From assembly GCA_010093605.1 (NCBI GenBank), contig MU004181.1:62001-126000 (forward strand): DNA of 64,000 bases. Direction: 5' to 3'. Position numbers and translations under genes: made by a program. Shown here piece after piece: positions 30,302-55,407 of the stretch; the first letter of the stretch is position 1; the number at the start of each line of letters is the position of its first letter. The DNA comes from Lophium mytilinum. Taxonomy: Eukaryota. The notes beneath the pieces are model-generated. The model searched no databases, had not been told where the DNA came from, and saw nothing but the letters and a program-made list of their open reading frames with translations.

Positions 30302-31723
30302 ATGCCTACCAAGTCGGTCGACCCTGAATTTGAGGCCATGATGAATAGGGCCGCAATGGCATTGCAGAATCTGCCAATCATGTCGGGATCTCACCTTTCT
30401 CCAATTCGTTCTGTTCCAGTCACGCAGAACCAGACTCTTCCTCCTAGCGTCTCTTCCGATCGACAAGCAGCCACGACCTCTGCTTTCGTATCAGATGACA
30501 TCGACACGCTGTCTGGCTCCCAAACAGAAGATCTCACCAAGCGGTCTCCACTCATTACTTTCTTGACGGAATCAGATCGATATGTGCCAATGTTCGACGT
30601 AATCACGCGCTGCCTACCGGTCTCGGATCTCCTAAACCTGAAGCGTGTGAGCAAGGAGCTGCAGGACGTATACGCCAAAGCCCAAAAGTCCCAGTGGAAT
30701 GAAGCCCGGGCTTTCGGTAACTTCTTCAAAGACCCGACAGGCTTCCGTAACAAGCTTGGAGAGGTCGCTGGCCTCATTTCCGGTATATTCGTCTTGCGAT
30801 TCTTGGCCCGTGCAGGCAATGGCAACATGTTAGACCTTTACGCCACCTACGGCCCGCAGGCTGACGCGCTTGAGAAGTATCTTCTTGACGTGGAGGGCTA
30901 CTACGTCAGCGACGAGGAGACAGCACCAGTGCCAAGCAACCTTAATGTATCGAGGTCACGTAAGGCGCAGACGTTTCGCTCTTCCCGCGACAAACGTCTC
31001 TTCATCTACCTCAATCACACGAACTCTTCCCCCATGCTGGACATACTTCGGGGTGATGTGTACAGCACCGCGGCAACTTCGATCATGACGGCAACAAAGG
31101 TCTATTCTCCATTTGCTAACATGACTTTCAAGAGCGATAAAGCCTACATAATCCGCGCCCTCGACCAGAACGCTCAGACGCACTTGAAGGATATTGAGCA
31201 CGCTCGGCGCGAGATCCTGGACCTGCGCTTCAAGGATCGGGGAATAGCGAAGTATCGTCGCTTGAACGACGGGGACTGCTGGGTCATGAGCCTGGATACC
31301 TGCAATATCGCCACGCCCGCCGTCCCTGATTACGTGTATGATCACACCGACTTTCTGTTCACTGATAGCAACCATCGGCTCTCCCCTCCAGAGAACATCG
31401 GCAGCTCGCTTCACTACAACTGCCTTTTGGGCCCCTTGCTTCACCCGGGACTCAAGCACACGTGGCTCGGCTGCGTCGAGGCGGACAACCGAAAGGATGC
31501 AATCATGCGTCGGCTGGACGCAGTGGTCTGGGCGCAACTGTGGAAACTTCGGGGCCGGGATCGGCCGGTCAATTGGGATGAGATGCTGCGGACGCCTCTG
31601 CTGGTGCGCGAGATGACGGGCTATACGGGTAAGACATTCGATGAGAAGCTGCCAGAGTGGATCAAGGAGCTTGACGATCTAAGCCCTGTGAAGACGGATG
31701 GGCCGTCAACCGCAACGAGGTAG
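30302..31723 (+). CDS. F-box-like + nucleotidyltransferase-like family protein, copy 2
   Basis: 473-aa ORF with YVPMFDVITRCLPVSDLLNLKRVSKEL, QWN, LISGIFVLRFL..LDLY, TATKVYSPFA, RRLNDGDCW, HPGLKHTW and FDEKLPEW. Confidence 0.88.
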   Translation: MPTKSVDPEFEAMMNRAAMALQNLPIMSGSHLSPIRSVPVTQNQTLPPSVSSDRQAATTSAFVSDDIDTLSGSQTEDLTKRSPLITFLTESDRYVPMFDVITRCLPVSDLLNLKRVSKELQDVYAKAQKSQWNEARAFGNFFKDPTGFRNKLGEVAGLISGIFVLRFLARAGNGNMLDLYATYGPQADALEKYLLDVEGYYVSDEETAPVPSNLNVSRSRKAQTFRSSRDKRLFIYLNHTNSSPMLDILRGDVYSTAATSIMTATKVYSPFANMTFKSDKAYIIRALDQNAQTHLKDIEHARREILDLRFKDRGIAKYRRLNDGDCWVMSLDTCNIATPAVPDYVYDHTDFLFTDSNHRLSPPENIGSSLHYNCLLGPLLHPGLKHTWLGCVEADNRKDAIMRRLDAVVWAQLWKLRGRDRPVNWDEMLRTPLLVREMTGYTGKTFDEKLPEWIKELDDLSPVKTDGPSTATR

Positions 31724-32797
31724 GCTACGGAATGTACCTGAGTGACACTTCTAGAGCAGCATTTCGGGTTCAATCCATACGGCTCTCTCGGGCTCCGAAA
31801 TAGTCGTACTTGTTTCCATGTTCAGGTATCGAGGTCTTTGGGGCGCAGCGGTGCTTAAGTATGTACATCTAGTAGATATGTTCCCTTGGAAGAGTCTAAA
31901 ATAGATATCAATTCAGGCTCTTCATTCCCTGTCATGCGCAAAGTAAAACGAGATCATACGACGCTTCACGTTAACTTGTCTGTTCTAGCTCTACTTCTCC
32001 GAATACAAGCGTGACATACAGCGAAACGCCGCGATGGCTTTGCTATTTGCGGTCAGAAGTAGGACGCTATTGAAGCTTCTCATATGTGATCAGGAAGCAA
32101 GCAAGAGCATTAAAACTTCAACATATTAGCTTGGTCTCGCTGTTCTACGTTTCCTCAAAATGCGAGGAAAGTGGTTATACAGCAGCCAATCACGCTAACT
32201 GCTATCGTATGAGACTTTCCTGATGCACAATTTTGAAAAAATCACATCTCATCCGTTCTTGTGATGCCTCAGGAGGCGCTAAACCATATTAAACAGTTGT
32301 AATGACGCATTTAGCTGTGCATTGTATTATTTAGAGATCTTTCGTGACCCAACGAGGAGGGGAAAGAAGTCGAGGGAGAGAAAATGATGTGGGCAGGTAA
32401 AAGGCAGGTTGAATTTAAGGGGCGGTCCAAATTGTGCAGTAGTTAAAGGTGTAGAGGGGTCAGAACGCAGGCCTTCACCAAGCTACCTTTCTGACTTCCT
32501 GTTCGGCGAAAAGACCCCGAAAGATAACGTCCATCTTTCAGCAAGTTGATGCTGCTCGAAATTGGGAGACTATTCCGAACTACATAAAGAGGTCCTCTAG
32601 GAAGCTATCTAAGCTCTAAATGAAGCGCTTAGAATCTATTGACTAGTTTACCATCGTGAACAATTTTAGTTACAGTTGAGTAAGCCATCTAGCGCAGACT
32701 TCGAGCTAGTTTATATGGAACAAGGCATTGCACATACTAACTCCATTAGCCTCTTAAAATCCAAGCGAGAGGTAGCATTAGTACAGTTTGCCACCAT

Positions 32798-34018
32798 CTA
32801 GGAGCGACGGAAGAGCTTCGCCAGCATGTGCACCCATTTCTTCCTCCTGCTCGGCAGTAATGGATGATTGAGTTCTTGAAGCCACTCCGGGATTTTCTCA
32901 TCAAACAATCTGCCCTTGTAGCCCGTCATTGTCTGTAGTAACTCTTTCCTGTGCTGCAACTCGTCCCAATTTTCTGGGAGGTCCTCCCGGGGAAGATCAC
33001 ACAGTTCCATGAACACCAGCGCGTCCAATCGGCGTGCGATTGGTTCCACACGGCCCAGGCCGGCTACAGTCCAATCGTGTGCTACAATCCACTCGTGAGC
33101 CAATCCAGCATGCTTCAACTCCCTCAGCATGATGCGGTAGTGGAGTGGACCACGCCGATTGGTACTGCAGGTAACGAGGAACTCTGCGTGCTCCAAGACA
33201 TAGTCCGGCGTAGATGGCGGCGCAATGTGAGTGGTGTCGAGTGCCATGATCCAAGATGAGCTGTCATTCAGTCGCCGAAGCCGAGTCTTTCCTCTGTCCT
33301 TAAAGCGCGTATCCAGCAACTCATACCCCCTTGCCTTTACATATGATAATTCGTCTCTACCCTCGTAGTCAAGGGGACGCATGCAGTAGGCCTTCTTCGT
33401 CTTGAGCGTCATATCCGCAAAAGGGGCATAGGCTTTCGTTGCCGTCATGAAGACAGTCCCTGCAGTTGTACCCCAAACCCCCCTCAGAACTTGATCCAGT
33501 GGGTGATCCATGGATTGAAGAATGGAAATCCAGAGCCTCGTCTTCTTGCAATGCTGAAAGTATTGAGTTTTGTAAAAAACCGTCGGTGGGTCGCCGGGGC
33601 GGATGTCCTCTGTAAAGCCCTCGTCGATCAAATACTTTTCGACAGCATCGCCTTGCTCGCCGAGGTGAACCTGGAGATCCAGTGAGTTGCCGACAGGGTT
33701 TCGATCGAAGAAGTCCATAGCAAAGACGCCAGCAATGAACGCAGAATTTTGTCCGAGCTTGTTCCTGAACTCTTCAGGTTTTGTGACGAATTTCTTCAGG
33801 GCAGTGTTGACGTTCCATTGTGTATCTTTGGTCTTCTGGTACACCCCGCGGAGGTCTTGGCTGACGCGACTTAGCGTTTTAAGATCAGAAGGCTCCAGAG
33901 AACGTGTGATGGCATCGAACATGGGCACATATTGGTCGGGCTTTGCGAGGAAATCGACCAGAGGTGAGCGATCGTCAGACGCCCGAGTGGGATTACCGAC
34001 TTTCTGGAAAGCAGACAT
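32798..34018 (-). CDS. F-box-like + nucleotidyltransferase-like family protein, copy 3 (an upstream in-frame ATG exists at 34108)
   Basis: YVPMFDAITRSLEPSDLKTLSRVSQDL, QWNVNTALKKF, FIAGVFAMDFFDR..LDL, TATKAYAPFA and FDEKIPEW; most similar by eye to copy 2. Confidence 0.88.
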   Translation of the reverse strand: MSAFQKVGNPTRASDDRSPLVDFLAKPDQYVPMFDAITRSLEPSDLKTLSRVSQDLRGVYQKTKDTQWNVNTALKKFVTKPEEFRNKLGQNSAFIAGVFAMDFFDRNPVGNSLDLQVHLGEQGDAVEKYLIDEGFTEDIRPGDPPTVFYKTQYFQHCKKTRLWISILQSMDHPLDQVLRGVWGTTAGTVFMTATKAYAPFADMTLKTKKAYCMRPLDYEGRDELSYVKARGYELLDTRFKDRGKTRLRRLNDSSSWIMALDTTHIAPPSTPDYVLEHAEFLVTCSTNRRGPLHYRIMLRELKHAGLAHEWIVAHDWTVAGLGRVEPIARRLDALVFMELCDLPREDLPENWDELQHRKELLQTMTGYKGRLFDEKIPEWLQELNHPLLPSRRKKWVHMLAKLFRRS

Positions 34019-34216
34019 TGTGGTGATTGGAAACGGGTTCGGCCAGGGGAGTGTGCGGGGTGGTGGGTGGTGGGTAGACAAAAATTTAGGATGATCTTCG
34101 CTATACATCTCACGTTACCATTTTTGTACCCTAGCTAATGGTGCACCGTCAGTGAATGTAGACAACTAAACAGACAATGTGATCGGAACCTTATCTCTCA
34201 GAACCTGTAGTACACG

Positions 34217-34458
34217 CAGGGCTCGGTATCAATCAATCAATCGGGCCACTTCGAATTGATTGAATTGACAGCTTAGTCAGCAGAGGTTTCCGTTGATTGA
34301 AACCGTCAATATTGACTGATATCTGTATGGTCGACCAATCCAGTGCTTACGAATTGATTGATTGAACCTTTTCCAGAGCCCGATTGATTGCTTCAATCCC
34401 CCAAGACTTCAATCAATTCAATCGATCGATTGCTTCAGTTGATTGATTCCGAGCCCTG
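34217..34458. mobile_element. Non-autonomous hAT-type element (MITE), 242 bp
   Basis: TIRs CAGGGCTCGG(T/A)ATCAATCAA match 19/20. Perfect 8-bp TSD AGTACACG at 34209-34216 and 34459-34466. Internal ATCAATC/GATTGAT repeats. Confidence 0.93.
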
Positions 34459-34906
34459 AGTACACGCTTTGCCGGACCTGCATATTCATTGTGAATACCA
34501 GAGTCAACTAATGCAGGTGAGAGAAATCAGGTACTAGCGAAACTATAAAGCCGCTCATTTGCGAAGAGCTTTTTACTCGATTTTAGGTATAGTATCTCTA
34601 TTTTTTTGCGTCGATCCTGCTATATGGGTCTGAGTGGCTGGGTTTCTCTAGAGCGTGGATTACACTGGATAGGTTTTCGCACCACGGTCTGAGCTTGATG
34701 GCTTCATCGAAGGCTGTGTGGGATGGGTTCGTCACTCCGAAGAGATTTAGAAGTAGGTCAATGCCACCGATGCATTGAATTAGCTCTTACTTGAGAGTGA
34801 ACATTGTTAAACTAAAGCGTCTCAGGCACGTGGCTTCAGGAGTATTCTCGGTCACCTGCAAAGTCTCCAAGAAAACAAGTATCTATCAGCTTCGCCTTTG
34901 AGTCGA

Positions 34907-36251
34907 TTACCAACCAGAATCCATAGTTTCAGTTGCGGCTGCGAGCCAGTCCCTCACAAGCTCATCGTAGAACTTAGCCGGCACAAACGCCTCCGTCGAA
35001 ACCGACTGAGCACCGCCTAGGTTCTGATCTTTCTGTCGCTTCTCTTCCTCTGACTCCATGGCGTCCTTATCCACACACTCCTGCAAGCGCTTCAAGAAGG
35101 CAGTATCATCACATACCGCCCACTGATACTTCAACCCGACATGCTGAAGCGCCTTGATGTCCACAACCCTTCGAACGCGTCCTTCGAACTCCGCACGTGC
35201 ACCAAATGAGGTACTATCGAGCACATACTCTGGCTGCCTCGGCGCGTCCACGCCGTCAGTGTTGAGTGGTATGACCCACGTTCTCCCGTCGTCGAGGCCA
35301 CGCGACCAGTAAGCCGGTACGTAGTCCCGATACTCGAACCTCCCCGGTCTGCGGCCGGTGGTTCTAAGCAGGCGCCGCCATGGATCTCGAGAGTCTCCGT
35401 TGATGGTGTGGTAGCAGCTGTTACAGAAGGTCCAACGTGCGAAGGGCACGTATATCTTGATGGCAGTGACGAAGTTGGCGAGGGCGGTGTTGAATTGGAC
35501 GCCACCGCGCAGTATGGCGACGATGGGCTGCGTGCTGGTGTAGCGGATCGAGATTGCGGTTTTCTGGTGGATGGGGGACGACTGGCGCTCATAGCGTGCG
35601 CGCTTTGAGGCGTGGAGTATTAGTCTACGGCTTGAGTCGAGGAGGGAAGGGGTCGTCGGCAAGACTTACGGTTATCCAGTCGGAGCCTGCGAACTTGCTA
35701 GACTCATCGCTACGATCTTCCGATGCTATGGTGTAGCCCTCTTCAAGAAGATAGGCTACGAGCTGATCTTTGTGTGGGCTGCGGTCGTCGACTATTACCT
35801 GTATCAACGGCCGACCACGCCTGCGATCCAAGAAGTCGAGCACGAAAGTGCCGGAGATGACGCCCGAAGATTTCTCTAGTCTGTTACGGAAGGCAATAGG
35901 GCTCTTGAAGTAGCGCTGAAGTGCTGTGTTGATGTTCCATTGCGTTCGGAGCGCGGTCTCGTAGCCCTCGTGGGTGAATGCGCGGTGGACACGTCGTAGT
36001 TTGACGATGTCGGTTGGCTCGAGATATTGGATGATACGGTCGACCATTGGGACGTATCTGCTAGGCTCGAAGAGGAAGTTGAGGGGGTTCGGCGTGTATT
36101 CCACGGAGGCTGATACTCCTGTGTGATCCAGAGGCCCTTTTGCAGGTGGCCTTTTGGGTGAGGTTGGGGGCTGGTGTTGGCCACGGACTTCTCTGTCCCT
36201 ATTAACCCTATTGCCATCGACGATGAACCTGCTGGTGGGAAAGGAAGCCAT
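34907..36251 (-). CDS. F-box-like + nucleotidyltransferase-like family protein, copy 4 (intron 35603-35669)
   Basis: A phase-0 GTAAGT..CTAAT..AAG intron joins the two ORFs. Motifs YVPMVDRIIQYLEPTDIVKLRRV, QWNINTAL, VISGTFVLDFLDR, TALANFVTA and HVGLKYQW. Confidence 0.85.
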
Positions 36252-36916
36252 TTTTGGCGTTGAGAGCTGACTTTGCCAGCCGCACCTTATTTTGCTGATA
36301 AGAGTGGTAGGTAAGCTGGAGGCTGGTGTGCAAGCGTAGGTGCCTTTTCAGAAGGTAGTCTTTTGGTCGTGGCATAGTTTGGTGAATCGTGGATCTTGCC
36401 ACCTTACCTCGCAGAATTTTTACATCTTGAATGGGGGTGAATATATGAAAGAGCAGAGAAAATAACAGAGAGACATAGGAGACTAGCTTCCCTGAAGAAA
36501 CACTCATCTCCAGGAAAGTGCATAGTGCCCGCCTTATTTAATCAATCTGGGATTCCTGCTCGCGAACTAAGCCGTGACAAAGGAGGGTGCGCAAATCTTG
36601 AGGAGGATTATAGAATACGGCACAATAAAACAGGTTTAGACACTCCTTGGGTCTGCATGAGGTATCTTGGTAGGCTCTGAAACTTCACTTTGAAAACTCG
36701 ATGCAGTGGAAATCGGGTTATTTTTTGATTAACCGAAGGCGTACTAGCCATGGTGCTCCTTGCAGCGGCGTGGAGAGGCGGCAGAGCAGTGGGATCTCTG
36801 TGTATCTAGACTCATGATCTAGCACTGTATAGCATCCTTGCTGATGAAAGCGAAAGTGCGAGAGGTTAGATACCTTTCTGACCTCCCATCATGACATCCT
36901 AGCGTAGTCATGGAAA

Positions 36917-38232
36917 CTACACAACGACCTTCCCATCTTTGAACGCCTTCAAACACTCCAATACCAAGTCATCAAGCCAGATCGGCGGGTCGAATGCCCC
37001 TGCCTCCGCCTCAAACGACTCGACTCCAAAATCCGCCAAGAAGGCCGTTGGCCAACTCTCCTTCGGCATCGTCATGAGTTCCAGGACTAAGCACCCATGC
37101 ACCCTATCCTTGATAAGATCTACTTGGCACTCCCGGGCAGCCCATTCATATTGTAGAGCCACGTGCGTGATAGGCTCGACGTCCACGTGATACGTCCCGA
37201 GATTTCTGAATGTGGTATCTGGCGTGACGGCAAACGTGGTGCTGGAGATAACATGTTCTGGCTGCCAGGGGTCTTCCATATCGTCTGCATTGAGGGGAAA
37301 GGTCCAAGTGAAGCCATCGTCTAAGCTACGGAGTTCCTCTGGTACATCTTGTTCAATAAACTCGTTATCCCGGAGGCTCCGCCCACTCTCTTTCGCGATA
37401 GACAGGGCGTTGCATGCCTCCTCGTGGGGGTGTTCAAAGTCCCCGTATGGATAGGAGCGACGGAGGCGGAAGGTGGACTGCGCAAAAGGCACATACACGT
37501 GAGAAGACGTGATGATATTGGCGAGTGCAGTGGTGTGCTGGAGACCTTGGAGGATTGAGATCACTGGGGAATTCTCTGTACGGGTAATGTAGATGTGGTG
37601 AAGGGTAGGGTCGAATCTGCTCATTGAGTAATTCTTTCGCTTTCATAGAGTTAGTATTCCGCATGGACATCAGGAGATATTGTGAAGGAACATACACGAA
37701 CCCACGGCCGTGGATGGCCGTTCATCACCATATTGTACCCTTCAGCCACTAAGTAGTCGAATATAGTCTCAGTCATGTCTTCATCATCGCGCGAGACGAA
37801 GATGTCCAGGCGCTTGCAAGACGAGATGGTGCGGCGGTCGAGGAAGTGCAGCGCGAACTCGCCAGAGATGCATCCTGACGCCATGCCCAACGCATTCCGG
37901 AACGCCTTAGGATCTTTGAAGAACTTTGCAAGCGCAGTGTTGATGTTCCATTGTGTACTGAGCGCAGCGGGATACGCGTTGTAAGCAAGATTGCGGTTCA
38001 CGCCTCGAAGAACAACGAGATCTTCAGGTTCCAGGTAGTTGACGATGCGGTCGAAGATCGGGACGTATTGGGCTGAATTCGCGAGGAGGTCAATAAGACG
38101 ACCTTTTGGGGGTACAGTACCGTTGGAATCAGGAGTGTTGAGTTCGCCGGTATTCGTGTCGATCATGTCGATGTCCATGACATCTCTGGCTGGGATAACA
38201 GTGGCACCGTCGGGGGTGGAGGAGTCGGCCAT
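36917..38232 (-). CDS. F-box-like + nucleotidyltransferase-like family protein, copy 5 (intron 37640-37695)
   Basis: Phase-0 GTATGT..CTAAC..AAG intron. Motifs YVPIFDRIVNYLEPEDLVVLRGV, CISGEFALHFLDR..LDIFV, TALANIITS and LDDGFTW. Confidence 0.85.
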
Positions 38233-39115
38233 GGCTGTGGGCAGCTTGGAGCCGATCACTGTGTTATTTGAGTTGTGGCGGAGGAGGAGTGTGAAGCCAA
38301 GTAGCTAAGGATGTATCACAAACGCGTAAATACTGTTCGGGAGGTCCCCTTATTTCCGTTGCCTTGCTGTTCGGCCTGGTGAATGGAGGCCAGCATGAGC
38401 ACGGTCAATGCTTCAGATGTCACGTGCAACTGAACATCATCCAACCCAGCCACAAGATTTAGAGCACGATCACATTGCTCCTCATTTCACGGTCGGAGGG
38501 ACCTCTAATTGTATGTTACCTCTCCCATACGCGCACAACGCCGTTTATCAAACGCGCATGTGCAATTTCTGTCCGATTCTCTACATATTTGGCCTTCCAG
38601 TTCACCGTCATCTAGATAGCAAGACGAGTTGGCTCGTGAGCATAGCAATAGCGAATCGGGCGTCACGCTTCAGATGCTAATACCTTGAATACAGCTTTGG
38701 CAACGTTGCGCGAACCGCTTCGAAGATTCGACGCACGGAGGAATTTTGCGTGCTTGGAAAAAGCTGTGTGGTTAGTAACACGATACACAGCGATATCATG
38801 GCCTTTCATTGAGCTTGTAACGGTACATATCACAGTATGTGTCGAGAAGGTACGCCGTTGCTCCAGAATTGAGGGCCATTATTACCCAGGTGAAATCGAA
38901 AAAAAGATAATCCAAGCTCGCAATTTTATACTTGAACTTCTGTTTCTAAGCTGGGTATAGGATAGTGAAGTTGACTAGCTGAAGACTGCAGACTGGAGAC
39001 GCTCCCACGTTGCGTCAACCTAAGAAGCCAACAAGGGCAAGAAAAGAAGATACTTCTGCAGCCGTCGGCCTCGTCCGTTTTCAGCGAATAGAAACTAGGC
39101 CTCGGGCAGGCCATT

Positions 39116-40452
39116 CTAGCTACACCTCTTGATACACTCCTCTTCTTGGTCACGAAGCCACTCCGGCATCATGTCATCGTACCTTGCCCCCAAATCAAGC
39201 TGGTCTGATTGAAGAAGCTGATTGTTACGTATGAGATCGCGCAGACTGGTGTTCCCGTTATCAGGCCACTGATTCTTCGGCAATACAGACACCTCCATTG
39301 CTAAAGCCGTGTTCAAGAAGGCGTCGACAGTACAGAAGTGTGCCCACACATACTGTAGCGCAGGATAAGATATCTGGCTCAGTTCCACCTTATAGTAGTG
39401 CTCGTTCTGGTCCCAAATCTCGGTAGCCCAGTATTTGAATGCCGTAGGATCTGTGACAAAGCTGGGAGTTGCAGGAGCAAGGACGTTGGTTGAGTCGAAA
39501 TCCATGCACCATGAGTGACCGTCAGTCAATTTGCGCAGCTGCGTCGAGTTATTGAGGTCTTTCCAGCGGATTCCTAGCAATCGACACCCAGCCTTCGCGA
39601 TGGACTTCAGATATTCACCAGGATCCTCTTTAAGGTTCCCGTGAAGGTAGGCACGGCGCTCGCAGAAAGTCTGTCTTGCGAAGGGAGCGTATATTTTCGT
39701 CGAAGTAATGAAGTTGGCAAGAGCGAGAGTGCATTGGCGTCCCTTAGATAGGAGGTCTACGATAGGTGTTTCGCGTGTGTTTTGTAGACATATTGATCGA
39801 CCGTCGGTTTCTGGGCGCTGATATACATCCGTTTTATATCGGTTGTCCTCACCTGTGCCTGCGGAGTGCTCCTCGTCGTGGTTGTAAGAGTGAGTCACGG
39901 CGTAGCCTTCGCGGTCGATTGCCAATGACATGAACTCGGCATTGCCAATACCTCCCATCTCTCCGTACACGAAGACATCAAGACGATCGCCGATGGATCG
40001 CCTATCATGGAATTCGAGCGCGAATTGACCAGATATAATTCCCGAGGTTTGCCCAAGCATGCCACGAAATGCCACGGGGTCCTTCACAAACTTTTTCAAT
40101 GCCGTGTTGATGTTCCATTGCGACTTCTGCACAGTCTCGTAGACTTTTGATAGAGGTTTCGAGACGCTGCGAAGCTTGATAAGGTCGCATACGTCCAGTT
40201 GGGAGGGTATTGATTCGAAAATCGGCCAATGGGCGTTCGGGTGGATGAGGAAGTTGTTGGAGTATATAATGTCGCTTATTCTCCGGTCCCCCTAATCTTA
40301 GGCGGGGCGTGCTTTTTCATCCAACAGAAGTCAACCAAACGTCCGCCCGGCGGTGGATCGGTGGCTACAGTCTTCAGAAATGCGGGGGCGGCGGAGGCAG
40401 ACTCAATTGGATGGGAGCCTGTAGAGGTAGCGGTCGTACAGGAGTCACCCAT
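39116..40452 (-). pseudogene. F-box-like + nucleotidyltransferase-like family copy 6, disrupted by a 72-bp insertion
   Basis: Removing 40255-40326 plus one TSD copy restores a continuous ORF MGDS...GRLVDFLIHPNAHWPIFESIPSQLDVCDLIKLRSVSK..QWNINTAL. With the insert present the frame hits TAA and shifts. Confidence 0.85.
40255..40326. mobile_element. Very short solo-LTR-like insertion (72 bp)
   Basis: Ends TGTTGGA...TCCAACA (7-bp inverted, TG..CA), flanked by a 5-bp TSD GAAGT at 40250-40254 and 40327-40331. Confidence 0.85.
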
Positions 40453-41607
40453 GATGTGATGTATGTTTGAGTTGCGAGGATGTTGGGTGGACGCTGTGAG
40501 GGTGTGGATGTGAAGTGGTAGTCGAGGGCGATGACCGGTTAACAAAACAGTTTGAACTAAGCGTTGCGTCATTTAAAGAAGCTTGTGAGTTTTCAACCAG
40601 GTGCTTGGGGTATTAAACACCGCGAACTGCCAGTAATCGATTTAATTGGTTGGTTAGCCTATTCACTATCCTAGAGGGTGCCGCCAAGAAACTGACAATC
40701 GCCGAAGAGGGACTATGCGTGTATCTGGACGACTTTTTGAGTGCAAACAAACTTATACAACAACATCACTTGTGCCAATTACAGTTGGCGCGAGCGACGC
40801 TTTTGACAAAGACTATAATGTCAGCGCCGGCTCGTGGCCCTCGATTGAGTCCTTATGTATCTCGACTTGCGCTCGTTCTTCGTGATCATAACCGCCAAAC
40901 ATTGCTAGCATCACGGGACTAGCACAATCATTCCCCATTCCGCAAAAATGACAAACTCAAGTTCGAAAAGCCCATGATTGACACCCATGACATCGATCCT
41001 ATTTGAGCATTAAGCATGGACAGAGGAAGCGAATAATTGGAACCGCGTTGAAAAAATGGAGCAGTTGCTATGCTTGGCTGGTTGGATCTCTAAGATGAGG
41101 GGCATCGAAATCTCACAGTGTGTACAAGGCTGTCAGAAACTCAATAGCGAGGCGCCCATAGGAGGTAAAATGTCACCTGGCCATGCTGTGTTCTTAGATC
41201 CTTGCTCTTACTCCAAGGCGTTCAGAGGAAGGTCGCGGCTAAGCGGACTCTCTGCCCACGAAAAGATGCATGCCCCGGGAGTCGAACCAAGGTCGACCGC
41301 GCGGGGAAAAGGTGCAAAAAAAGTGTCTAACTCCCTTTGATAGAGCGTGTCATCCTTATTACAAGGGCCTATCGCTATTCCAGACATGTCAATGTTCACT
41401 CGACTTGATGCTAGAACGAAGATCTAATGCAGTAGTCCAGACAGATAGTATTCTCTACTCAAATTCTATGGTTCCCAAACAAGTACTCATCTCTCTCCCA
41501 ACTCAATGTCGGATATCATATCAATAAGCCTCGCAGCTAGCCAGCCTACCAGCCCCTCAACTCTAAGCCATCCGACACCCCTCCCTCCTTAACCTCTCAT
41601 TCTGCTC

Positions 41608-42939
41608 CTACGGTACCTGCTTGCCCTCCGCAATCTTCCCCGCCCACTCCGCCACCATGTCGTCCAGCCACGTCGGCGGCACAAAGTCTCCAGAACGGCT
41701 ATGCAGACCCCTAAACATAAAGTCCATAAGATCAACCGGCCAGTCCTCCTTCGGCAGCTTTCCAATCTCAAGCATGAGGAGATAACGAAGCCGCCTCATC
41801 ACTTCCACGCTTCTGAGCTGGAGCCCTGCCCAGGAATATTGGAGGCCGACGAAATCCAGTGCATCTAGGGCTACGATGAACCGATCGTGGCCTGGCGCAT
41901 CATTCGTGTCAACGCGGACGCTGAAATCGGTCGCTTCGATGACGAAGTCGGGCTCTTTTGGAGTGACGAGGCCGTCTGTTGGGAAGGGGATAACCCAGGT
42001 TTTGCCGTCTGCGAGAGTGCGATAGCAGCGAGCTGGCGTTGGCTTCTCTGTGCTGCCATGGATAGAAGAAGCAGCAACGATATGATCGCGCAGATCACGT
42101 CCACTCTCAGAGGCAACGCTAAGAGCTGCCGGCATCTCCTCATCGCTATCATGCAACATGCCGTGTAGATAAGAGCGGCGCTCCTTGATAGTATACTCCG
42201 CAAAAGGCACATATGCCTTGGTGGCGGTGATGACGTTAGCGAGAGCCGTCGTGTACTGCATTCCCTTCAAAATGCTCACGACCGGCGGGCCCACGGTATA
42301 TTTGACGTAAAGCTTGGTGGGATGTACACCAGTCGGACGTTTTCGAACATAACGGTCCACCTGTGCGAGGTTAGTCATTAAATTCTTTGCTGGTGGGATG
42401 GTACTTACGCCTGTCCACAGACGATTCCTCGCTGGGGCCTGGTGCGTGTGGCCGCCGTGTTGATCGTATCCTTCGTTCTGGAGAAATGCTGTCAATGTCT
42501 CTTTATTCGGCTCCTCCTCAGACATGAAGATGTCGATGCGCTCCCCTGGAGCTCGGCGGTCGAGGAAACGCAGGACAAACTCGCCTGTTACCACTGCTTG
42601 GACTTGGCCCAAAGCGCTTCGGAATCCCACCGGGCTCTTGAAGAACTCGGACAGGGCGGTGTCGATGTTCCATTGGCTCGATTGAGCGGCGGAGAAAACA
42701 TCGTTGGCGGCCAAAGCACGGTCTACGCCACGTAGAGCAATGATGTCCCGTGGTTCAAGATATTGGGTGATAACGTCAAACATCGGGATGTACGCGGATC
42801 CATGAACCAGGAAACTTAGTGCAGTTCCGTCATCGCCGCTGCTAGTGCCGCTTTCATGCGTAATGGCATGATCAGCTGGGCGGCTGGGGTCCTCGAGGGA
42901 TTGGACGTTCGAAGATACCATAGATGAGGCGGAAGGCAT
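41608..42939 (-). CDS. F-box-like + nucleotidyltransferase-like family protein, copy 7 (probable in-frame intron 42361-42408)
   Basis: Motifs YIPMFDVITQYLEPRDIIALRGV, QWNIDTAL, VVTGEFVLRFLDR..IDIFM and TALANVITATKAYVPFA. A 48-nt GTAAGT..CTAAC..CAG sits at the same position as the paralog introns. Confidence 0.88.
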   Translation of the reverse strand: MPSASSMVSSNVQSLEDPSRPADHAITHESGTSSGDDGTALSFLVHGSAYIPMFDVITQYLEPRDIIALRGVDRALAANDVFSAAQSSQWNIDTALSEFFKSPVGFRSALGQVQAVVTGEFVLRFLDRRAPGERIDIFMSEEEPNKETLTAFLQNEGYDQHGGHTHQAPARNRLWTGVSTIPPAKNLMTNLAQVDRYVRKRPTGVHPTKLYVKYTVGPPVVSILKGMQYTTALANVITATKAYVPFAEYTIKERRSYLHGMLHDSDEEMPAALSVASESGRDLRDHIVAASSIHGSTEKPTPARCYRTLADGKTWVIPFPTDGLVTPKEPDFVIEATDFSVRVDTNDAPGHDRFIVALDALDFVGLQYSWAGLQLRSVEVMRRLRYLLMLEIGKLPKEDWPVDLMDFMFRGLHSRSGDFVPPTWLDDMVAEWAGKIAEGKQVP

Positions 42940-43747
42940 GGAATAGTGGGGGTGGGCTATTTGTGTGGTGTGGCAGGTTGTATATTAGAGTGGTTGCAAT
43001 GAGTGTATGCGAAGGCAGGAGGTATTTATAGACGTAATTTCTCAGAAGAGCCAGCCTTAGAGGGCAGTGAATTGATCGGGCTCTATATTGGAAGCAGCTC
43101 TAAATTCACCAAGTCTAGAGCACTGCTTGAATCAGTTGTACTTTCATAGCAATAAGAAGCTATACCCTACCAGAGTCAATCATGTTCAAATACTAAAGAA
43201 TACTTATAGCACGGATAGCTTGCAGCTTACTTCGAAAGGCGTCAAGAACATCTAGTATTAAAGGTCTTACGTAAAAAAATAGAGTGGATGCAAAACCCCA
43301 TTTCAAATGCTGACCTCTAGCATATTCATTTGACGGTTACGTCACAGCCTAGTAGATGCCGATTGGCCTCTTCTTACCGAAAGATTCACTTCTTCATGAA
43401 TTTGAGCCTTCTCAAGTTCTGAAATGTCGCATGCTTCGCGACATATAGACCAACTAAAAACTTCCAAGGAATACCACGTGCTTCATCGAACAAGCTACAC
43501 GTACAAGCCAGCCGTAGAACCACACCATTTTACTGCTGCTTGGATTTCCCTAGTAGGACTTTTTTTTTAGGCGCGCGATATCAAGTTCTAAGCAGTGCAA
43601 ATCTGACTACTGTTTTACTCATTGTCTACCGACTAGCTGGGCCACTCCTTACAGTGATATCAAGCACCCAAAACTAGAGCCGAGCAGCAGCAAATCCGCG
43701 TGCACATGTTCATAGCCTCCTCTTGTATCTAATAGCTGCTCTCGTTC

Positions 43748-44890
43748 CTAGAAAACGTGATAGAATCCGTGTTCTAGCCTTTCGTGGTCGGCGGTGCAGA
43801 CAACGAAGCTGGTGGAGTCAGCTACGTCGTCTGCTTGTTGTGAAGACGCTACGTTCGTCATGTTGAGATCCATGGACCACGTTTCCGAATCACTCAGCGA
43901 GCGCCGAGTGGTTGGCCACGCCACATAATCGGCCCAGTCCTCAGGGTCGTAATAAGATGGCCCTTTTGGACCCTCCTCGACGTCCCAAAGCTCACGGCCT
44001 GTTTGGGAGATGATTTCCACGCCTGCTTGGAACGCAATGCTGTTTATCCGGCCGTTGAGGCCAAAGCGGTAAGACCGGTCGTCTTTGAAGGTCCATCGTG
44101 CAAACGGCGCATAGACCTTAGACGCCGTAATAAAACTGGTGAGGGCCGTATGAGGGTATAGGCCTCGAAGAATCGCGCGGATTGGTGGGTCCATTGGGAA
44201 GATAATAATGATTATCTCCGGTCGGCCTGGCCGTTGATACATCTCGAGCTATTGCTGTCTTAGTGCGCCATTCTTTCAAGAATACTGAACAAGAAAGGGG
44301 ATACTTACTACATCCCTGCCCCCCCAAAGATCTTCCTGGATCCTTGCGTATCCTCCCTTGATGATGTAGTCTCTTATCTCCTCCCGCCTTGGTTCATTCT
44401 TCGAGACTACGATATCCAACCTGTGTCCCGAACTGGAACGGTCCAAGAAATCAAGCACAAAAGGCCCAGATATTACAGCCGATACCTGTCCAACCAAGCT
44501 GCGAAACGCAGTCGGTTTGGTAACGAAGTTGCCCAACGTGCGGTTGAGGTTCCACTGTGTCCTCATCGCAGTGGACATTTCGGCGTCTAGTGTGTGATTG
44601 ACGCGTTTGAGCCGAAGAATGTCGGCGACATGAAGACTACGAGTAATTCCATCAAAAATGGGGACATACTGCTCCCCACTGCCTAGGAAGTCGATTACGT
44701 CTCGTGGTGTTCCGGTTTCGTGGCCGTGGCCGTTGCGCAAAAAAGAGGAAGAACCGACATGTGAGGGCCTCGATTCAACCCAGCCGTTTGCAATTCTTCG
44801 TCGCTTGGACGCTGGCTCCACATGCTCTGCCACGTTTCCGTTATCACCTCGCTTTCTCTTCAATCCATTCGCTCCAGCCGTCGTGGACAT
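43748..44890 (-). CDS. F-box-like + nucleotidyltransferase-like family copy 8, C-terminally truncated (intron 44249-44308); possibly a pseudogene
   Basis: Motifs YVPIFDGITRSLHVADILRLKRV, QWNLNRTL, VISGPFVLDFLDR..LDIVV and ITASKVYAPFA. Stops at HVF* before the HxGLxxxW and terminal D..W motifs of the paralogs. Confidence 0.75.
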
Positions 44891-45649
44891 TGTAGCTAAG
44901 TTGCCAGATGATGTTGACACACTGGTAGAAGCTGACAGATTGTTGATCGTTGATTATTTGGAGGTTAGGTAGATGTTGTGAGATTTGTGGTGTGTGGGTG
45001 TGGTGACACGGGGTGGTTGTGAGTGTAAGTCCCGAAAGACGCCCCCCTCGAAGGTGGATTTATGCACCCAAAGTAGACCCGAGAAGTGACATTCAGTGCC
45101 AAAAGCGGAACATTCAGTGAACTGGCTGCCTGGTTGAGGTATGCCAGCGCATTCAAGGCAACCATTTACATCTCGCCGGTTAATGCTGAGTGCCAAGGTT
45201 GAGGCGTCCAAACAATGCTTCTGCACAACGCAATTCGATATGTCTACTGCATAGTATGTTGCGAATTGGTACACCTATGAGACTCAGTATGTTAGCATTC
45301 AAATGGATGTCGATGAGGCGAGGCTGCATTTGTAACCTTTTAATGGTTCAGTTGCACTCACCTGCACGGGAACATAGGCGATAGCAGCTTGCAGCCACGC
45401 GCAAAGTTTAGGGGCTATGAGCTGGATATACCAGACGTAGGAAAATTAGCTATACAGTTTGATTTAGATCAAGGCTGGAGAGGAAGAACTCTCAGACCAT
45501 GTTCGACACTTCGGCTGAGCTGAGGGGTTTTTTATATCATGATACATTATGGTGATTATACCAAACTTGCGGCAATGTATGTGATCAAGCGCAGATACTA
45601 GGATGAAGCAATCAATTAAAAGGTACCATATGAGTTTGAGATTAGCAAT

Positions 45650-46710
45650 CAGACGGTAGATATATCACATTGCACGATGGAGTATCCACCAGGCTCTATA
45701 AGTAACGGAAATTCGACACTGCCCTCTCTCATCACTTCGAAGATTTCAAAGCCTTCCAAAGCGGGCTGAGCTAGGTATGATGTATCCTCTCTGGCGAAGT
45801 CGCGCTCCGCTTGCTTTATCACATGTCCAAGTAGGAGGAAATAGTGAAGAACCGGACCCCACACACTCTGATGTAAGAAGATTAGCCGGTGATTGAGTAA
45901 TTGCGGCAATATCTAGGAAAGAAGGTGTATATGCAGTCGGGGATGCTCGCGGGCAGACGTGCTGCAGTAAATGCTTACATCACTAAGCCCCGAGCTTTTC
46001 AACGTACTTACCGCTGAACGTCGCAATCTTCGCGATCATAAACATCAACGACACTAACAACGCTTTCTTCACCCATCGCCCCCCATCATCACAGGCTTCA
46101 AGAGCTTGTTCCCCCTAATCGCATTTGCGAACAACGTAAGATTTATGAAAGCGTACGCCCCGTTCGCGTATTGGAGCTTCGAAACCTACCGCTTTTACCC
46201 CCACCGCCGCTCCAGTTGCGGCGAGAACATGGCGTCCCGCCTTGCCATCTTCGCCGCGACCGGCGGTGAGATTCGCGATATCGAGACCAACCCGGAAGCG
46301 TCATGAACCGCACGTCAGTATACACTCCGTAGGAGACAGCTAGACCGGCTGCATCGCTCTCAACACCGAGGCCATGACGTCCCGGATCCCGGACTTCGTC
46401 GCATCGACGACGAGTTTTTATACCAAGGCTGCCAAGGGCCAGCATGCCGAGATGGAGACGAGACGATTGAGCATGTGGTGTTGCAGCACCCGTGCTGGGG
46501 CTGCATGAGGGTGCATACGGCGTTGGCGCTGCGGTGCTGGCGGAGGCGCGGGTGGTGCGTTTGCGGGATTTTGAGATTGACTCGCTTGATGCGCGGCATG
46601 GGTCGTTTCGGCCGTCGCGCGACTGGGTGATGTTGTCTGGAGTAGGCCTAAGAGATGGCAGAGTAGGGAGGCAGCTTTTGGAGACCATGGTGGTAAGTTG
46701 GGGAGATTGA
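45650..46710 (+). pseudogene. F-box-like + nucleotidyltransferase-like family copy 9, heavily decayed
   Basis: One frame reads *RKFDTALSHHFEDFKAFQSGLS*V*CILSGEVALRLL; later PPIITGFKSLFPLIAFANNVRFMKAYAPFAYWSF..TGGEIRDIE, matching family motifs with many stops. Confidence 0.75.
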
Positions 46711-46977: not shown

Positions 46978-48610
46978 CTAACCATCATCCTCCTCTCCAT
47001 CACGAGGATCCCGACCAAGCGTCAGGAGTCCGACACCGCGGGCGAGCGAGCACAGAGGCCAGAACGAACCCGAGAACTCGAGGTCATACCAGTAATTGAC
47101 GGCACAGCATATTCCCTCCGACGAAACCGACTGCGCTACCTTGTGGTACCACAATGCGGGCAAGTACAGCATATCGCCCTCGTCCAGCGTGACCCGCATG
47201 GCACGAGAGTACTGCGAGAACGGCGTAGCGCGCCGATCTGGAACATCGGGGTCCCAAGTTGCGAATGGCACATTTTCCTCCGGCTCATCGAGGCACACAA
47301 CGAGATCGTCTAGGACTTCGTCGTGCGTCATTGCTGGACGAACCTGCGAGGAAGACATGGAGATGTCGGAGGTGACGGATGGCGAGCGGGGAGATTCGGG
47401 GGTGACGGGCTCTCGAGGTTGGTAGGTGGCGGCTGGGATAAGCTGCTCGTTGACACATGCGCACTCGATGGGAGGTAAGAGGGTGAAGTGCTTTTGGCCA
47501 AGGACTTGCACGTAGATATTTTCGTAGTTGTCCTTGTGTAGGGCAGTGATACTGCAAGAGTTGCCTAAGAATCTTAGTAAAATAGACGGAGGAGATGGAA
47601 GGTCGAAAGACAGCCCAGATTCCGCGGCATGCGACTTGACCTTGCACATTTGCGAAGACCCATACGGTGGCCCTAAGCGTTGGGAGACGAATCGTAAAGA
47701 CATACCTAGCCATAGATTGATGGCGTCTGGGGATTTCTCCAACGCGATTCGGGCGAACGGTATGTCCTTCGGGAGGTCGGAGAATAGTGGCATGTACTCA
47801 TTGCGGAGATTGTCATTTTCTTGAAACAATCAGTGTAAGCCTAGCGATCAGGTATAGTAGACTATGAAAACATACGAGTTTGCGCGTATCTAGTCGGTCC
47901 TAAGTTCAGCGTTAGCCGAGAGGCATTCAGAGAAGCCTGGGTATGAGTTGATCTCAAGAGTTACCTGGGCCATCTATTCCTTGACGCTCTTTCTCTTGAA
48001 TCTTCTCGAGAAGCTTGTTAAATGGCTCTTCTGTGTCATAGGGCTTCACGAATAGCAACCCGTCGTCCTCAAGCTCTATGACCGAGTCTGCGTTTCTAGA
48101 AAAGAACACGTGGCGTTAGCACGGTTTTTGCTGGGCCAATCCTCCTCGAGAAGATCTCTCCAAGAATAGAGCGTGGCTGGCGAAAGAAAAGCTTACCCAT
48201 GCGGTGTCACAGCGACATTGACAAGCTGCCGACCCATGACATCCACCATGTACTTCGCATTCCACACCTTCCGCGCCGTCCAGCTCTCAGCGCCCTTCCG
48301 GACAACGAATGGCCGATTGCGGGCAACATAGCGCATGAACTCGAGCGGACTTGGCTCTTCGTGCAACTCATCGATGATTGTGGAGTTGAGTTCGTGATAC
48401 GACACGATAAGATCTGATTGGATGGGTTAGAAAAGATAAATGCGACCGTACCACAAGCACAGGCAACGAACGAAGCATCCAAAGTTTACAGAAAGACTAT
48501 GAAAGCGTATCCGACAGAGGAGGGGGCGCATTGTACTATATCGAGAGGGTAAACCACCCACCTCTTACAGCACCGGGGAGCTTCGCCATATTCGGCACAT
48601 TGAACGTCAT
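46978..48610 (-). CDS. JmjC (cupin-like) domain protein, JMJD7-like; multi-exon
   Basis: Motifs PSPLEFMRYVARNRPFV, VAVTPHGNAD, YAQTQNDNLR, PDAINLWLGN, TALHKDNYENIYVQ and GDMLYLPALWYHKV (HxD..H triad). Start codon (48610 or 48589) is uncertain. Confidence 0.9.
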
Positions 48611-54427: not shown

Positions 54428-55407
54428 TGGAAGGGATTGCGGTGTTGGAAGATGGATGGGATTCTGAGTTGCCAAGGAGCGCATCATTGGCACCTCGGCA
54501 GCGACGGCCGAAACGAATGGGTGCCAAAACATCACCAGCCATCGACCTCAGCTTTATCCATCAAAATCTGTAAATACGTCTTTCTTGTATTTTTATAGCA
54601 TCTAGCCATGTTCTCTTCACGCATTTCGGGGGGTATTCCCCCCTTTTTACATGTCAAATTCTCGTATGCGCACTTCCTGTGCACTACGCCAATGGAAAAT
54701 GCTATCTCCATCACCAAAGCGCCATCATGAGCAGAAATGCCCGCCTCTACCTCTCCTAGGCATCCCAATGAATCGTCTTCTAGCCCGGCTTCATACAGGA
54801 TCTGCGCCGTCATTGGCCATGAGGGATTCATTGTGGCCTCCCCCCAGCGACGACCGACGAGTTACGTTCGATGAGGCCATGAACCAGCCGCTAAATCGAT
54901 AGCTGGTTGATGGTAGCAATAGAAGTCTAATTCACAATCTCAAACTACGCATATCTGTCATCTCCGCTGATGCAATGATAGTTGAAGTTTGGTAGCATGT
55001 GCCTTCCAATATCTCGCCTCTTCGAGATTTTCTCGACAACCGTGGTCGCTTTTACCAATAACACACAAACTCTTGCAAATGCCCAAAAGATTGGAGGTTT
55101 AAGAGACAAAGTCCAAATCCGTATGTTCCGAACAGTTTCCATAACCGCGGAGTAATGGAAGCTCGCGGTGCTCCGCGCCTCGTGCCTTCGAGCCCATCTA
55201 ACGCAGTATCTTTCCCCGCCTGCATTCTAAGGATATGTCTCCTTTGGATAAGTTTGCTATTTCTAGCAAAGGTTTCCCGGGCAGACGATATCTCTAGCAT
55301 GCTTCCAACTACTAGAAGCTTCCAAGAAGGGCAGAATAACAGCTATATAGGTAGGCTCATGTGCCGCTACTCTGACGACCACCTCTATTCCTCCACCCTG
55401 GCACAAA

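What the first reader, a model, noticed from the sequence alone, without database searches (positions are those of the whole stretch)
30302..46710. Tandem array of F-box-like / degenerate nucleotidyltransferase-like fusion genes (9 copies in the window)
Seen: eight paralogs in 16 kb plus one at 7451, very divergent but sharing ordered blocks: YVPMFDxI...LxxxDhxxLxxVxxxL, QWNhNTAL, FR, hISGxFhLxFhDR-x(4-7)-LDhhh, YL..EGY, PhhxhL..TALANhhT...Y.PFA, LxDGxxW, HxGLxxxW and DxxhxxW. Established: the first block resembles an F-box (Skp1-binding) motif, and hG[GS]-x(9-13)-DhD is the pol-beta nucleotidyltransferase signature. Seen: the residue after G is never S (E/I/V/T/Q/P) and the first Asp of DhD is replaced (e.g. 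RLD, SLD, MLD, VLD, RID). Inference: these may be SCF adaptors using a catalytically dead NTase fold as a diversifying recognition module, i.e. a rapidly evolving surveillance or non-self degradation repertoire.
Basis: partly seen in the sequence, partly recalled or inferred. Interest (0 to 1): 0.85.

Follow-up and report, generated by a model that had tools for sequence, protein, structure and literature searches.

The report
Fungal F-box dead-nucleotidyltransferase gene array
A wood-dwelling fungus carries an old, fast-changing cluster of genes that join a probable ubiquitin-ligase docking motif to a nucleotide-adding enzyme fold that has lost its catalytic residues, so they probably pick proteins for destruction rather than act as enzymes, but their targets are unknown.

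Summary
Largely confirmed. The window holds nine copies, 27-44% identical. Six look intact, one is truncated but spliced, one is broken by a 72-bp repeat, and one is a decayed pseudogene. At least five more copies carry the same species label and contig length. The AlphaFold model (pLDDT 93) has a class II CCA/A-adding nucleotidyltransferase head (Z 10.1) behind an F-box-like helical bundle (weak: Z 4.5; Pfam below cut-off). The C-terminal domain has no clear PDB match. The family is large (2,420 clusters) and related to phage Gad2 and giant-virus proteins. This scan had noted the family before on other DNA; I found no paper on it. 49 of 125 outside homologues keep G[SG]..DxD. The array's clade (19 sequences, two genera) lost the whole co-conserved set together (Ser 0, Gln 0, first Asp 1, KY 0 of 19) but kept the fold. 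Best cross-genus matches are 38-70% identical, against 96.5% for the neighbouring JMJD7 gene. Best reading: non-catalytic SCF substrate receptors under birth-and-death turnover (about 0.5). Skp1 binding was not tested, and a non-self or antiviral role is not shown.

The parts
7451..8677 (+). c0: intronless copy, 408 aa, outside the array; best cross-genus match P0011 (58%)
   Evidence: Pfam F-box E 0.009, 16.4 bits, below cut-off 20.5
30302..31723 (+). c1: intronless copy, 473 aa (= P0004); convergent with c2, its closest paralogue (44%)
32798..34018 (-). c2: intronless copy, 406 aa (= P0001); the copy that was folded. F-box-like residues about 18-66, NTase head about 68-240, C-terminal beta/helical domain about 245-385
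34217..34457 (.). hAT-type MITE-like element upstream of c2: CAG..CTG ends, 23-nt inverted arms, 8-bp flanking duplication read from the sequence; a second contig aligns here
   Evidence: the hAT label is recalled knowledge
34907..36251 (-). c3: 425 aa (= P0002), phase-0 intron 35669-35603; has lost both Asp of DxD
36917..38232 (-). c4: 419 aa (= P0005), phase-0 intron 37695-37640 at the same alignment column
39116..40452 (-). c5: copy frameshifted by an insertion before the F-box; no rescue intron with a canonical branch site (0 of 26 candidate splices); best cross-genus match P0010 (70%)
40255..40326 (.). 72-bp dispersed repeat inside c5, 7-bp inverted ends TG..CA, 5-bp target duplication (solo-LTR-like, inferred); many other contigs of DNA run X1 align only here
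41608..42939 (-). c6: 427 aa if the in-frame 48-nt intron 42408-42361 is spliced (predicted, same site as c3/c4); best cross-genus match P0007 (52-56%); a low-depth contig of run X3 covers its 3' end
43748..44890 (-). c7: intron 44308-44249 skipped in a contig of RNA-like run X3; stops at 360 aa and lacks the C-terminal helical part; positional counterpart P0069 (31-38%)
45600..46630 (+). c8: decayed pseudogene (ends approximate); its closest relative is the open M. resinicola gene P0009; overlapped by a spliced minus-strand transcript
46978..48426 (-). JMJD7-like JmjC gene (5' end approximate): syntenic anchor and rate control, not part of the family

Best explanation
These are non-catalytic substrate receptors for SCF (Skp1-Cullin1-F-box) ubiquitin ligases, derived from a widespread fungal F-box plus Gad2-type nucleotidyltransferase family. 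SHOWN (computationally): one clade in Mytilinidiaceae lost the metal-binding Asp and Ser and the co-conserved Gln, Lys-Tyr and Arg residues together, kept the fold, the F-box-like helices and the C-terminal domain, multiplied by old local duplication to at least 14 copies in this species, and turns over by insertion, truncation and decay. INFERRED: the N-terminal helices dock on Skp1; the dead NTase head plus the family-specific C-terminal domain binds a protein target (the ancestor's substrate-recognition surface reused) and delivers it for ubiquitination; different paralogues take different targets. The driver (conflict with viruses, competitors or selfish elements, or merely niche-specific regulation) is unknown.
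For: Fold: AF2 pLDDT 93.3, pTM 0.89; Foldseek best PDB hits are A-adding/CCA enzymes, E 1.5e-4; VIA Z 10.1, rmsd 4.2, 166 aligned to 3wfo_A, with 5 of 48,161 chains at Z >= 8 and the top seven rows all tRNA nucleotidyltransferase-type. Catalytic loss: among 42 outside homologues chosen for G-[SG], DxD and KY, Q102 (100%), N189 (100%), R230 (93%) and Q165 (83%) are co-conserved; in the 19 clade members S98 0, Q102 0, D112 1, Q165 0 of 18, K226 0, Y227 0, R230 1, while G97, F99, F103, P173, T204, R248, W256 and F280 stay invariant. Passages of bioRxiv 2023.12.02.569716 state that class II enzymes need the two motif-A carboxylates. Single origin: the 19 rows form one branch, SH-like 99 (FastTree). 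F-box: the model's residues 3-54 align to a Skp1-bound F-box, 5ibk_E, 48 of 48 residues, Z 4.5; 5 of 8 excised N-termini match PF00646 at E <= 1, best 3.8e-4; 17 of 80 homologues have sub-threshold F-box hits at the same site; the F-box region is as conserved among Lophium paralogues (41%) as the NTase core (39%). Selection on protein: synonymous sites saturated (pS 0.68-0.86) against pN 0.39-0.53 in 28 of 28 pairs. Fast change: cross-genus partners 38-70% versus JMJD7 360/373. Splicing in an RNA-like run for c7.
Against: No F-box hit at the N-terminal site reaches Pfam's cut-off (0 of 80; c0 and c5 sub-threshold). A profile of the eight N-termini found no F-box protein in the PDB, and Z 4.5 is within the range of common helical arrangements. 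The clade keeps D114 (18 of 19) and N189 (16 of 19) and mostly has Arg at the first Asp (12 of 19), which could serve an altered chemistry. The pocket is not uniformly hypervariable. Three of nine copies are broken. No target, no expression pattern and no site-level selection test. Degeneration is common family-wide (57 of 125 outsiders keep at most 4 of 10 marker residues), so it is not special to this locus; that share is biased upward because the query profile was itself degenerate.
Confidence: 0.5

Rival explanations
1. Redundant paralogues under relaxed selection: after duplication the enzyme function was lost and the copies are drifting towards pseudogenes, with little or no present function.
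For: 3 of 9 copies are broken; the family degenerates repeatedly in other fungi; run X3 gave no contigs over c0-type intronless copies c1 and c2 or over c3-c5, which is not evidence either way.
Against: Six ORFs of 406-473 aa stay open although synonymous sites are saturated. Many positions are invariant across 19 members, several of them clade-specific (P199, A201, T192, W310). Gene-for-gene counterparts persist next to JMJD7 in a second genus.
Confidence: 0.13
2. The head still binds a nucleotide, tRNA/RNA end or nucleotidylated protein, or has an altered chemistry, so the proteins are ligand-gated F-box sensors or atypical enzymes rather than simple protein-binding adaptors.
For: D114, N189, D105-R106 and often R112 are kept. 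Passages of PMC11646218 say that Tam41 keeps one of three acidic residues and that RelA/SpoT synthetases replace GS with GR and lack one acid, yet both are active.
Against: Position 98 takes at least ten different residues, and K226, Y227 and R230 became small or hydrophobic; no new invariant polar set replaces them except R232.
Confidence: 0.15
3. Decoys or regulators of active family members: the dead copies bind the same target as an active F-box-NTase or a viral Gad2-like enzyme, or titrate Skp1, and so block or tune it.
For: Intact relatives are common in fungi, and related folds abound in giant viruses and phages. An earlier scan note reports another family gene in this genome (e1-7640687; not checked here).
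Against: No intact copy lies in the window; a single decoy role does not need at least 14 divergent copies; no interaction data.
Confidence: 0.12
4. The N-terminal helices are not a working F-box but a structural cap of the NTase head, and the proteins have nothing to do with SCF.
For: All N-terminal Pfam F-box scores are sub-threshold; no PDB F-box by sequence profile; the Atlas feature hit is 0.86, a lead only.
Against: The same weak F-box signal recurs at one site in 17 of 80 homologues; structural neighbours of the segment are F-box clusters and 5ibk_E; the closest viral folds include proteins named F-box; a related pandoravirus NTase carries a BTB adaptor instead.
Confidence: 0.1

Closest known systems
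Class II tRNA nucleotidyltransferases and bacterial poly(A) polymerase (PDB 3wfo/3wfp, 4wby, 3h37, 3aql; Pfam PF01743)
   Same: Head-domain fold over model residues about 46-227 (Z 8-10, rmsd 3.4-5.3).
   Different: Motif A broken in all window copies; identity 10-14%; no match to the neck, body or tail beyond about residue 278; an F-box-like N-terminus and a different C-terminal domain.
Gad2 (Gabija anti-defence 2) of Bacillus phage SPbetaL7, WIT28108.1; Pfam PF26128
   Same: Atlas feature score 0.91 to a Gad2/NCLDV cluster, and structure neighbours. A profile of 42 intact homologues scores Gad2 at 14.6 bits, above all 2,000 shuffles (max 10.2). Gad2 shows, by eye, the same order G-G..DxD..Q..KY.
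   Different: Similarity is weak (HHalign probability 4%, E 0.0096) and was aligned over the first motif only. Gad2 keeps the motif, has no F-box and is a phage counter-defence protein; its enzyme activity was only predicted in the passages read.
Pandoravirus 'cluster 7' BTB plus class II nucleotidyltransferase (bioRxiv 2023.12.02.569716; passages read)
   Same: A ubiquitin-ligase adaptor domain fused to a class II NTase with Gln where the third carboxylate would be, multi-copy per genome.
   Different: BTB/Cul3 rather than F-box/Cul1; catalytic motif conserved; viral; not aligned to the window's proteins here.
Giant-virus F-box plus NTase-like proteins (Klosneuvirus A0A1V0SK13, Orpheovirus A0A2I2L471, Catovirus A0A1V0S9F3, Cedratvirus A0A2R8FG48)
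   Same: Top Foldseek matches in BFVD, E 4e-7 to 4e-5, named F-box proteins.
   Different: 10-13% identity, TM about 0.3-0.4; uncharacterised; their catalytic state was not checked.
F-box fusions with conflict-derived or expanded recognition domains: FBXO3 and fungal F-box-SUKH (PMC3113570, passages read); nematode and plant F-box/MATH-BTB birth-death families (as cited in PMC1866355, passages read)
   Same: An F-box in front of a domain recruited from bacterial conflict systems as a presumed substrate-recognition module; clustered, unstable families hypothesised to act in pathogen defence, on indirect evidence.
   Different: Unrelated recognition fold; eukaryotic FBXO3 shows no lineage-specific expansion; positive selection was not testable here.

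Membership tests
Pol-beta nucleotidyltransferase superfamily (class II head) | NTase fold | tested here: met
   (Z 10.1, 166 aligned, rmsd 4.2)
Pol-beta nucleotidyltransferase superfamily (class II head) | hG[GS]x(9-13)Dh[DE]h motif intact (definition) | tested here: not met
   0 of 8 ORF copies; 1 of 19 clade members (P0009, M. resinicola) keeps GG and DLD but lacks Q102, KY and R230
Pol-beta nucleotidyltransferase superfamily (class II head) | NMP-transfer activity | not testable with these tools
   needs an assay
Gad2 family (PF26128) | Significant profile match | tested here: inconclusive
   14.6 bits for the intact-homologue profile and 8.3 bits for the clade profile, each above 2,000 shuffles; HHalign probability 4%; no Gad2 hit appeared in the Pfam scans, whose copy may lack the model
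Gad2 family (PF26128) | Catalytic motif as in Gad2 | tested here: not met
   Gad2 has GG..DVD; window copies do not
F-box proteins | Pfam F-box above the curated cut-off | tested here: not met
   c0 16.4 and c5 13.3 bits against 20.5; 0 of 80 homologues at the N-terminal site
F-box proteins | Three-helix F-box fold at the N-terminus | tested here: inconclusive
   helices 6-12, 20-26, 30-39, 46-54; 5ibk_E Z 4.5, 48 aligned, rmsd 3.5; TM 0.45-0.52 to F-box clusters
F-box proteins | Binds Skp1 | not tested
Unnamed fungal F-box-like plus NTase family | Full-length profile match with the same domain order | tested here: met
   2,420 representatives at E <= 0.001, 142 at E <= 1e-30; Atlas TM 0.80 and 0.71 over 347-377 residues to ascomycete clusters
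Positively selected birth-death F-box immune repertoires | Clustered, unstable copy number with pseudogenes | tested here: met
   9 in the window plus 5 outside; 3 of 9 broken; c8 dead here but open in the sister genus
Positively selected birth-death F-box immune repertoires | Site-specific positive selection in the substrate-binding domain | not testable with these tools
   no orthologous DNA was obtainable (no genome held; 0 of 63 JMJD7 loci carried a copy); paralogue dS is saturated

The most novel reading that the evidence does not exclude
Fungi carry an undescribed, virus-shared class of 'F-box plus Gad2-type nucleotidyltransferase' conflict proteins, and they repeatedly convert it into arrays of dead-enzyme receptors that recognise foreign or selfish proteins (for example viral NTase effectors or their modified targets) and send them to the proteasome. 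This would be an SCF-based variable immune repertoire in fungi, parallel to NLRs, and this locus with at least 14 copies would be an example.
Probability: 0.17. Interest if true: 0.88.

Novelty: new variant of a known kind. Interest (0 to 1): 0.56.

Why it matters
The family has thousands of clusters across asco- and basidiomycetes and relatives in giant viruses and phages, yet nine literature searches found no description of it. A matched series of intact and dead members, with gene-for-gene counterparts in two genera, makes two questions testable: what the Gad2-type NTase modifies in eukaryotes, and whether fungi build variable ubiquitin-ligase receptor repertoires from dead enzymes. The general pattern (F-box arrays, pseudoenzymes as binding modules) is known, which caps the surprise until a target is found.

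Tried and rejected
Skp1 complex prediction: not available; no verdict. The 120 Skp1 homologues listed were pandoraviral, amoebozoan or unnamed, none labelled fungal, so the test would have used a stand-in. No whole genome is held. PDB sequence searches with the family profiles gave only DDX3X and similar noise, E >= 0.15, and the N-terminal profile found no F-box. PHROGs: best E 0.027, single members. The word-index homologue search found only 3 proteins, far fewer than the HMMER scan. C-terminal domain folded alone (pLDDT 91): no Foldseek match at E <= 0.001, best VIA Z 4.1; this does not show a new fold. Viral-contig scan with P0022: nothing confirmed. Phage tblastn with P0022: E >= 3. The metagenome scan with JMJD7 returned 63 loci but not the 52-kb contig that carries family fragments; none of the 66 loci then held had a family hit, though many flanks are short. 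tblastx synteny on those loci was too noisy except for the S26-JMJD7 pair. The IQ-TREE run timed out; FastTree was used, without bootstrap or AU test. RIP as the cause of c8's decay: dinucleotide indices are like the window's, rejected. No RNA holder was listed; X3 is only guessed to be RNA, and its lack of cover on c1-c5 is no evidence. No tRNA and no Rfam family at gathering score. The 55351 DUF7730/2EXR gene is not a family member. The Thomas 2006 F-box paper was not held; it is cited only through PMC1866355. Literature searches without a description of the family: (open-access library only; bioRxiv supplements closed, no supplements read).
Full report
Setting. The window is fungal: spliceosomal introns, a GH3 glucosidase, an M35 protease, a JmjC gene and a polysaccharide deacetylase. 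No genome is held. A database protein identical to my splice model of copy c3 is labelled Lophium mytilinum by its source; the nearest relatives are labelled Mytilinidion resinicola.

The observation. Nine copies are present (coordinates under parts), 27-44% identical in pairs. Six look intact (c0, c1, c2, c3, c4, c6). c5 is frameshifted just before the F-box by a 72-bp element with inverted ends and a 5-bp target duplication, which recurs on many contigs of DNA run X1. c7 is spliced in a contig of run X3 (guessed to be RNA) but ends at 360 aa. c8 is a + strand pseudogene. c3, c4, c6 and c7 share a phase-0 intron at the same or nearly the same alignment column and group together in the tree (SH-like 98). 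That fits DNA-level tandem duplication. Synonymous sites are saturated in 28 of 28 pairs, so the duplications are old.

Extent and history. Five more copies carry the same species label and contig length, with accessions KAF2501985, 86, 88, 89 and 90; JMJD7 is KAF2501977. So at least 14 copies probably lie in two groups around a central block (inferred from accession order). In M. resinicola, JMJD7 is KAF2817842, followed by 843 (closest to c8, but open), 844 (sister of c7), 845 (c6), 846, 847 and 849, with further copies at 820 (c0), 821 (c2) and 832 (c5). The order suggests an inversion of the block from c6 through JMJD7 between the genera (inference from accession numbers only). JMJD7 is 360 of 373 identical between the genera, while the window copies' partners are 58, 62, 70, 56 and 38% (c0, c2, c5, c6, c7). 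Caveat: the representative library merges proteins above 50% identity, so closer partners of c1, c3 and c4 could be hidden. The ten clade proteins looked up, and c2 and c3, are singletons at 90%. None of 63 JMJD7 loci from other fungi showed a copy in the flanks held, which fits, but does not prove, an origin at this site within the family.

Anatomy. AlphaFold2 of c2 with 136 sequences gave pLDDT 93.3 and pTM 0.89. Foldseek's best PDB hits are A-adding and CCA-adding enzymes (E 1.5e-4). VIA-align gives Z 10.1, rmsd 4.2, 166 residues to 3wfo_A, with class II enzymes in the top seven rows. Residues 3-54 align to a Skp1-bound F-box (5ibk_E, Z 4.5, 48 residues), which is suggestive only. Pfam F-box hits are all below cut-off at this site: c0 and c5, 17 of 80 homologues (an 18th, P0072, passes the cut-off at an internal second site), and 5 of 8 excised segments at E <= 1. 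A PDB sequence search with those segments found no F-box. The C-terminal 157 residues fold confidently alone but match nothing clearly.

The family. A profile of the copies finds 2,420 cluster representatives at E <= 0.001. The Atlas lists 24 unnamed eukaryotic clusters among its 30 feature hits, the best three at 0.98 (asco- and basidiomycete), and a Gad2/NCLDV cluster at 0.91. BFVD's best folds are Klosneuvirus, Orpheovirus, Catovirus and Cedratvirus proteins, several named F-box. I saw only the best 150 hits. I dropped 11 under 280 aa and 3 identical to window copies, leaving 136 plus 8 window models. Of 125 rows then counted as outsiders (one, P0069, later proved to be a clade member), 49 keep G[SG] and DxD; 50 keep 9-10 of 10 marker residues and 57 keep at most 4. 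The markers were derived from the intact rows, so the G, S, D, D, K and Y figures are circular. Q102, N189, R230 and Q165 are not, and they are co-conserved at 83-100%. Phage Gad2 has the same order of residues by eye and scores above 2,000 shuffles against the intact profile, but HHalign probability is only 4%. It is a distant relative, and membership of PF26128 is not shown.

Catalytic state. The 19 Mytilinidiaceae rows form one branch (SH-like 99; FastTree, no bootstrap). In them S98 is 0, Q102 0, D112 1, K226 0, Y227 0 and R230 1 of 19, and Q165 0 of 18, while the scaffold residues stay invariant. Such joint loss of metal ligands and of the probable triphosphate-binding set (role inferred) is the pseudoenzyme pattern. 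Passages of bioRxiv 2023.12.02.569716 say that class II enzymes need both motif-A carboxylates. Against certainty: D114 (18 of 19), N189 (16 of 19) and Arg at 112 (12 of 19) are kept, and PMC11646218 notes active NTase-fold enzymes with fewer acids (passages). The old pocket is not clearly a hot spot: position 98 is at the 90th entropy percentile, 165 and 226 at 63-66, and 102, 112, 227 and 230 at 35-46. The most variable regions are the intron-bearing loop, the former KY-RG helix and the C-terminal helices (17-22% identity among paralogues). These are candidate specificity surfaces, though they are also variable among intact members.

Mechanism. Shown: fold, joint catalytic loss, single origin, local expansion, purifying selection on the protein, fast divergence, turnover. 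Inferred: Skp1 docking, target binding by the dead head plus C-terminal domain, ubiquitination. I give this about 0.5. Rivals: altered ligand binding or chemistry 0.15, relaxed decay 0.13, decoy of active relatives 0.12, not an F-box 0.10. The Skp1 complex prediction could not be run. Nothing here links the genes to non-self recognition; the immune reading rests on analogy.

Comparison with what is known. It works, probably, like an F-box receptor with a recruited recognition domain (FBXO3 and fungal F-box-SUKH, PMC3113570, passages) in an unstable clustered family (PMC1866355, passages). The nearest published architecture is the pandoravirus BTB plus class II NTase, which keeps its motif. For Gad2 I read passages of bioRxiv 2023.05.01.538930. 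Other papers were seen as search listings only. Nine searches found no description of the fungal family; subscription journals and preprint supplements were not visible. Earlier AI notes of this scan reported single genes of the same family in this and another genome, but none reported the dead array.

Verdict. Real and mostly as described: a new variant of a known kind, a pseudoenzyme clade of an unstudied, virus-shared F-box-NTase family, expanded in arrays. Interest 0.56; the immune-repertoire reading has probability about 0.17 and would deserve about 0.88.

Noticed in passing
window:45616-46769 (-): Contigs of run X3 cover the c8 pseudogene and skip 46011-45868 with minus-strand GT..AG ends, so a spliced transcript antisense to c8 (or a JMJD7 read-through) exists; it carries a 189-codon ORF from 46710 with no Pfam hit.
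   Followed up: partly
window:41255-41370 (-): The 3' half of a U6-like sequence (Rfam E 0.035, 18.4 bits, below gathering 44) is followed by a T-run and, about 25 nt further, a B-box-like GGTTCGACTCC (label recalled). Extra contigs align here in both runs. No 5' half of U6 was seen.
   Followed up: partly
window:40255-40326: A 72-bp multicopy mini-element with TG..CA inverted ends and a 5-bp target duplication; very short for a solo LTR, also seen in contigs of run X3.
   Followed up: partly
window:34217-34457: MITE-like element with 23-nt inverted arms and many internal TCAAT/ATTGA repeats, upstream of c2.
   Followed up: partly
window:285-963 (+), 3288-3824 (+), 55351-56526 (+): Other ubiquitin-adaptor-like genes nearby: a BTB gene (Pfam above cut-off), a second ORF resembling its C-terminal part by eye (weak Cullin hit, E 1.6e-4), and a DUF7730/2EXR gene with an F-box-like start.
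   Followed up: no
L002:311-757, L003: Pandoravirus genomes encode their own Skp1, with what appear to be introns.
   Followed up: no
P0072, P0143 (basidiomycete homologues): Longer members (632 and 748 aa) with an intact motif; P0072 has a further F-box at 329-358 that passes Pfam's cut-off.
   Followed up: no
P0082, P0101, P0156 (each on a 52,034-base JGI contig): Probably a third related fungus with JMJD7 and family fragments on one contig; not retrieved by the scan.
   Followed up: partly
window:12000-30000: Apart from GH3 (19255-21459), no Pfam hit among the ORFs scanned here (146 of the shorter ORFs window-wide were not all scanned: 145 of 235); the stretch left of the array looks gene-poor or holds orphan genes.
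   Followed up: no
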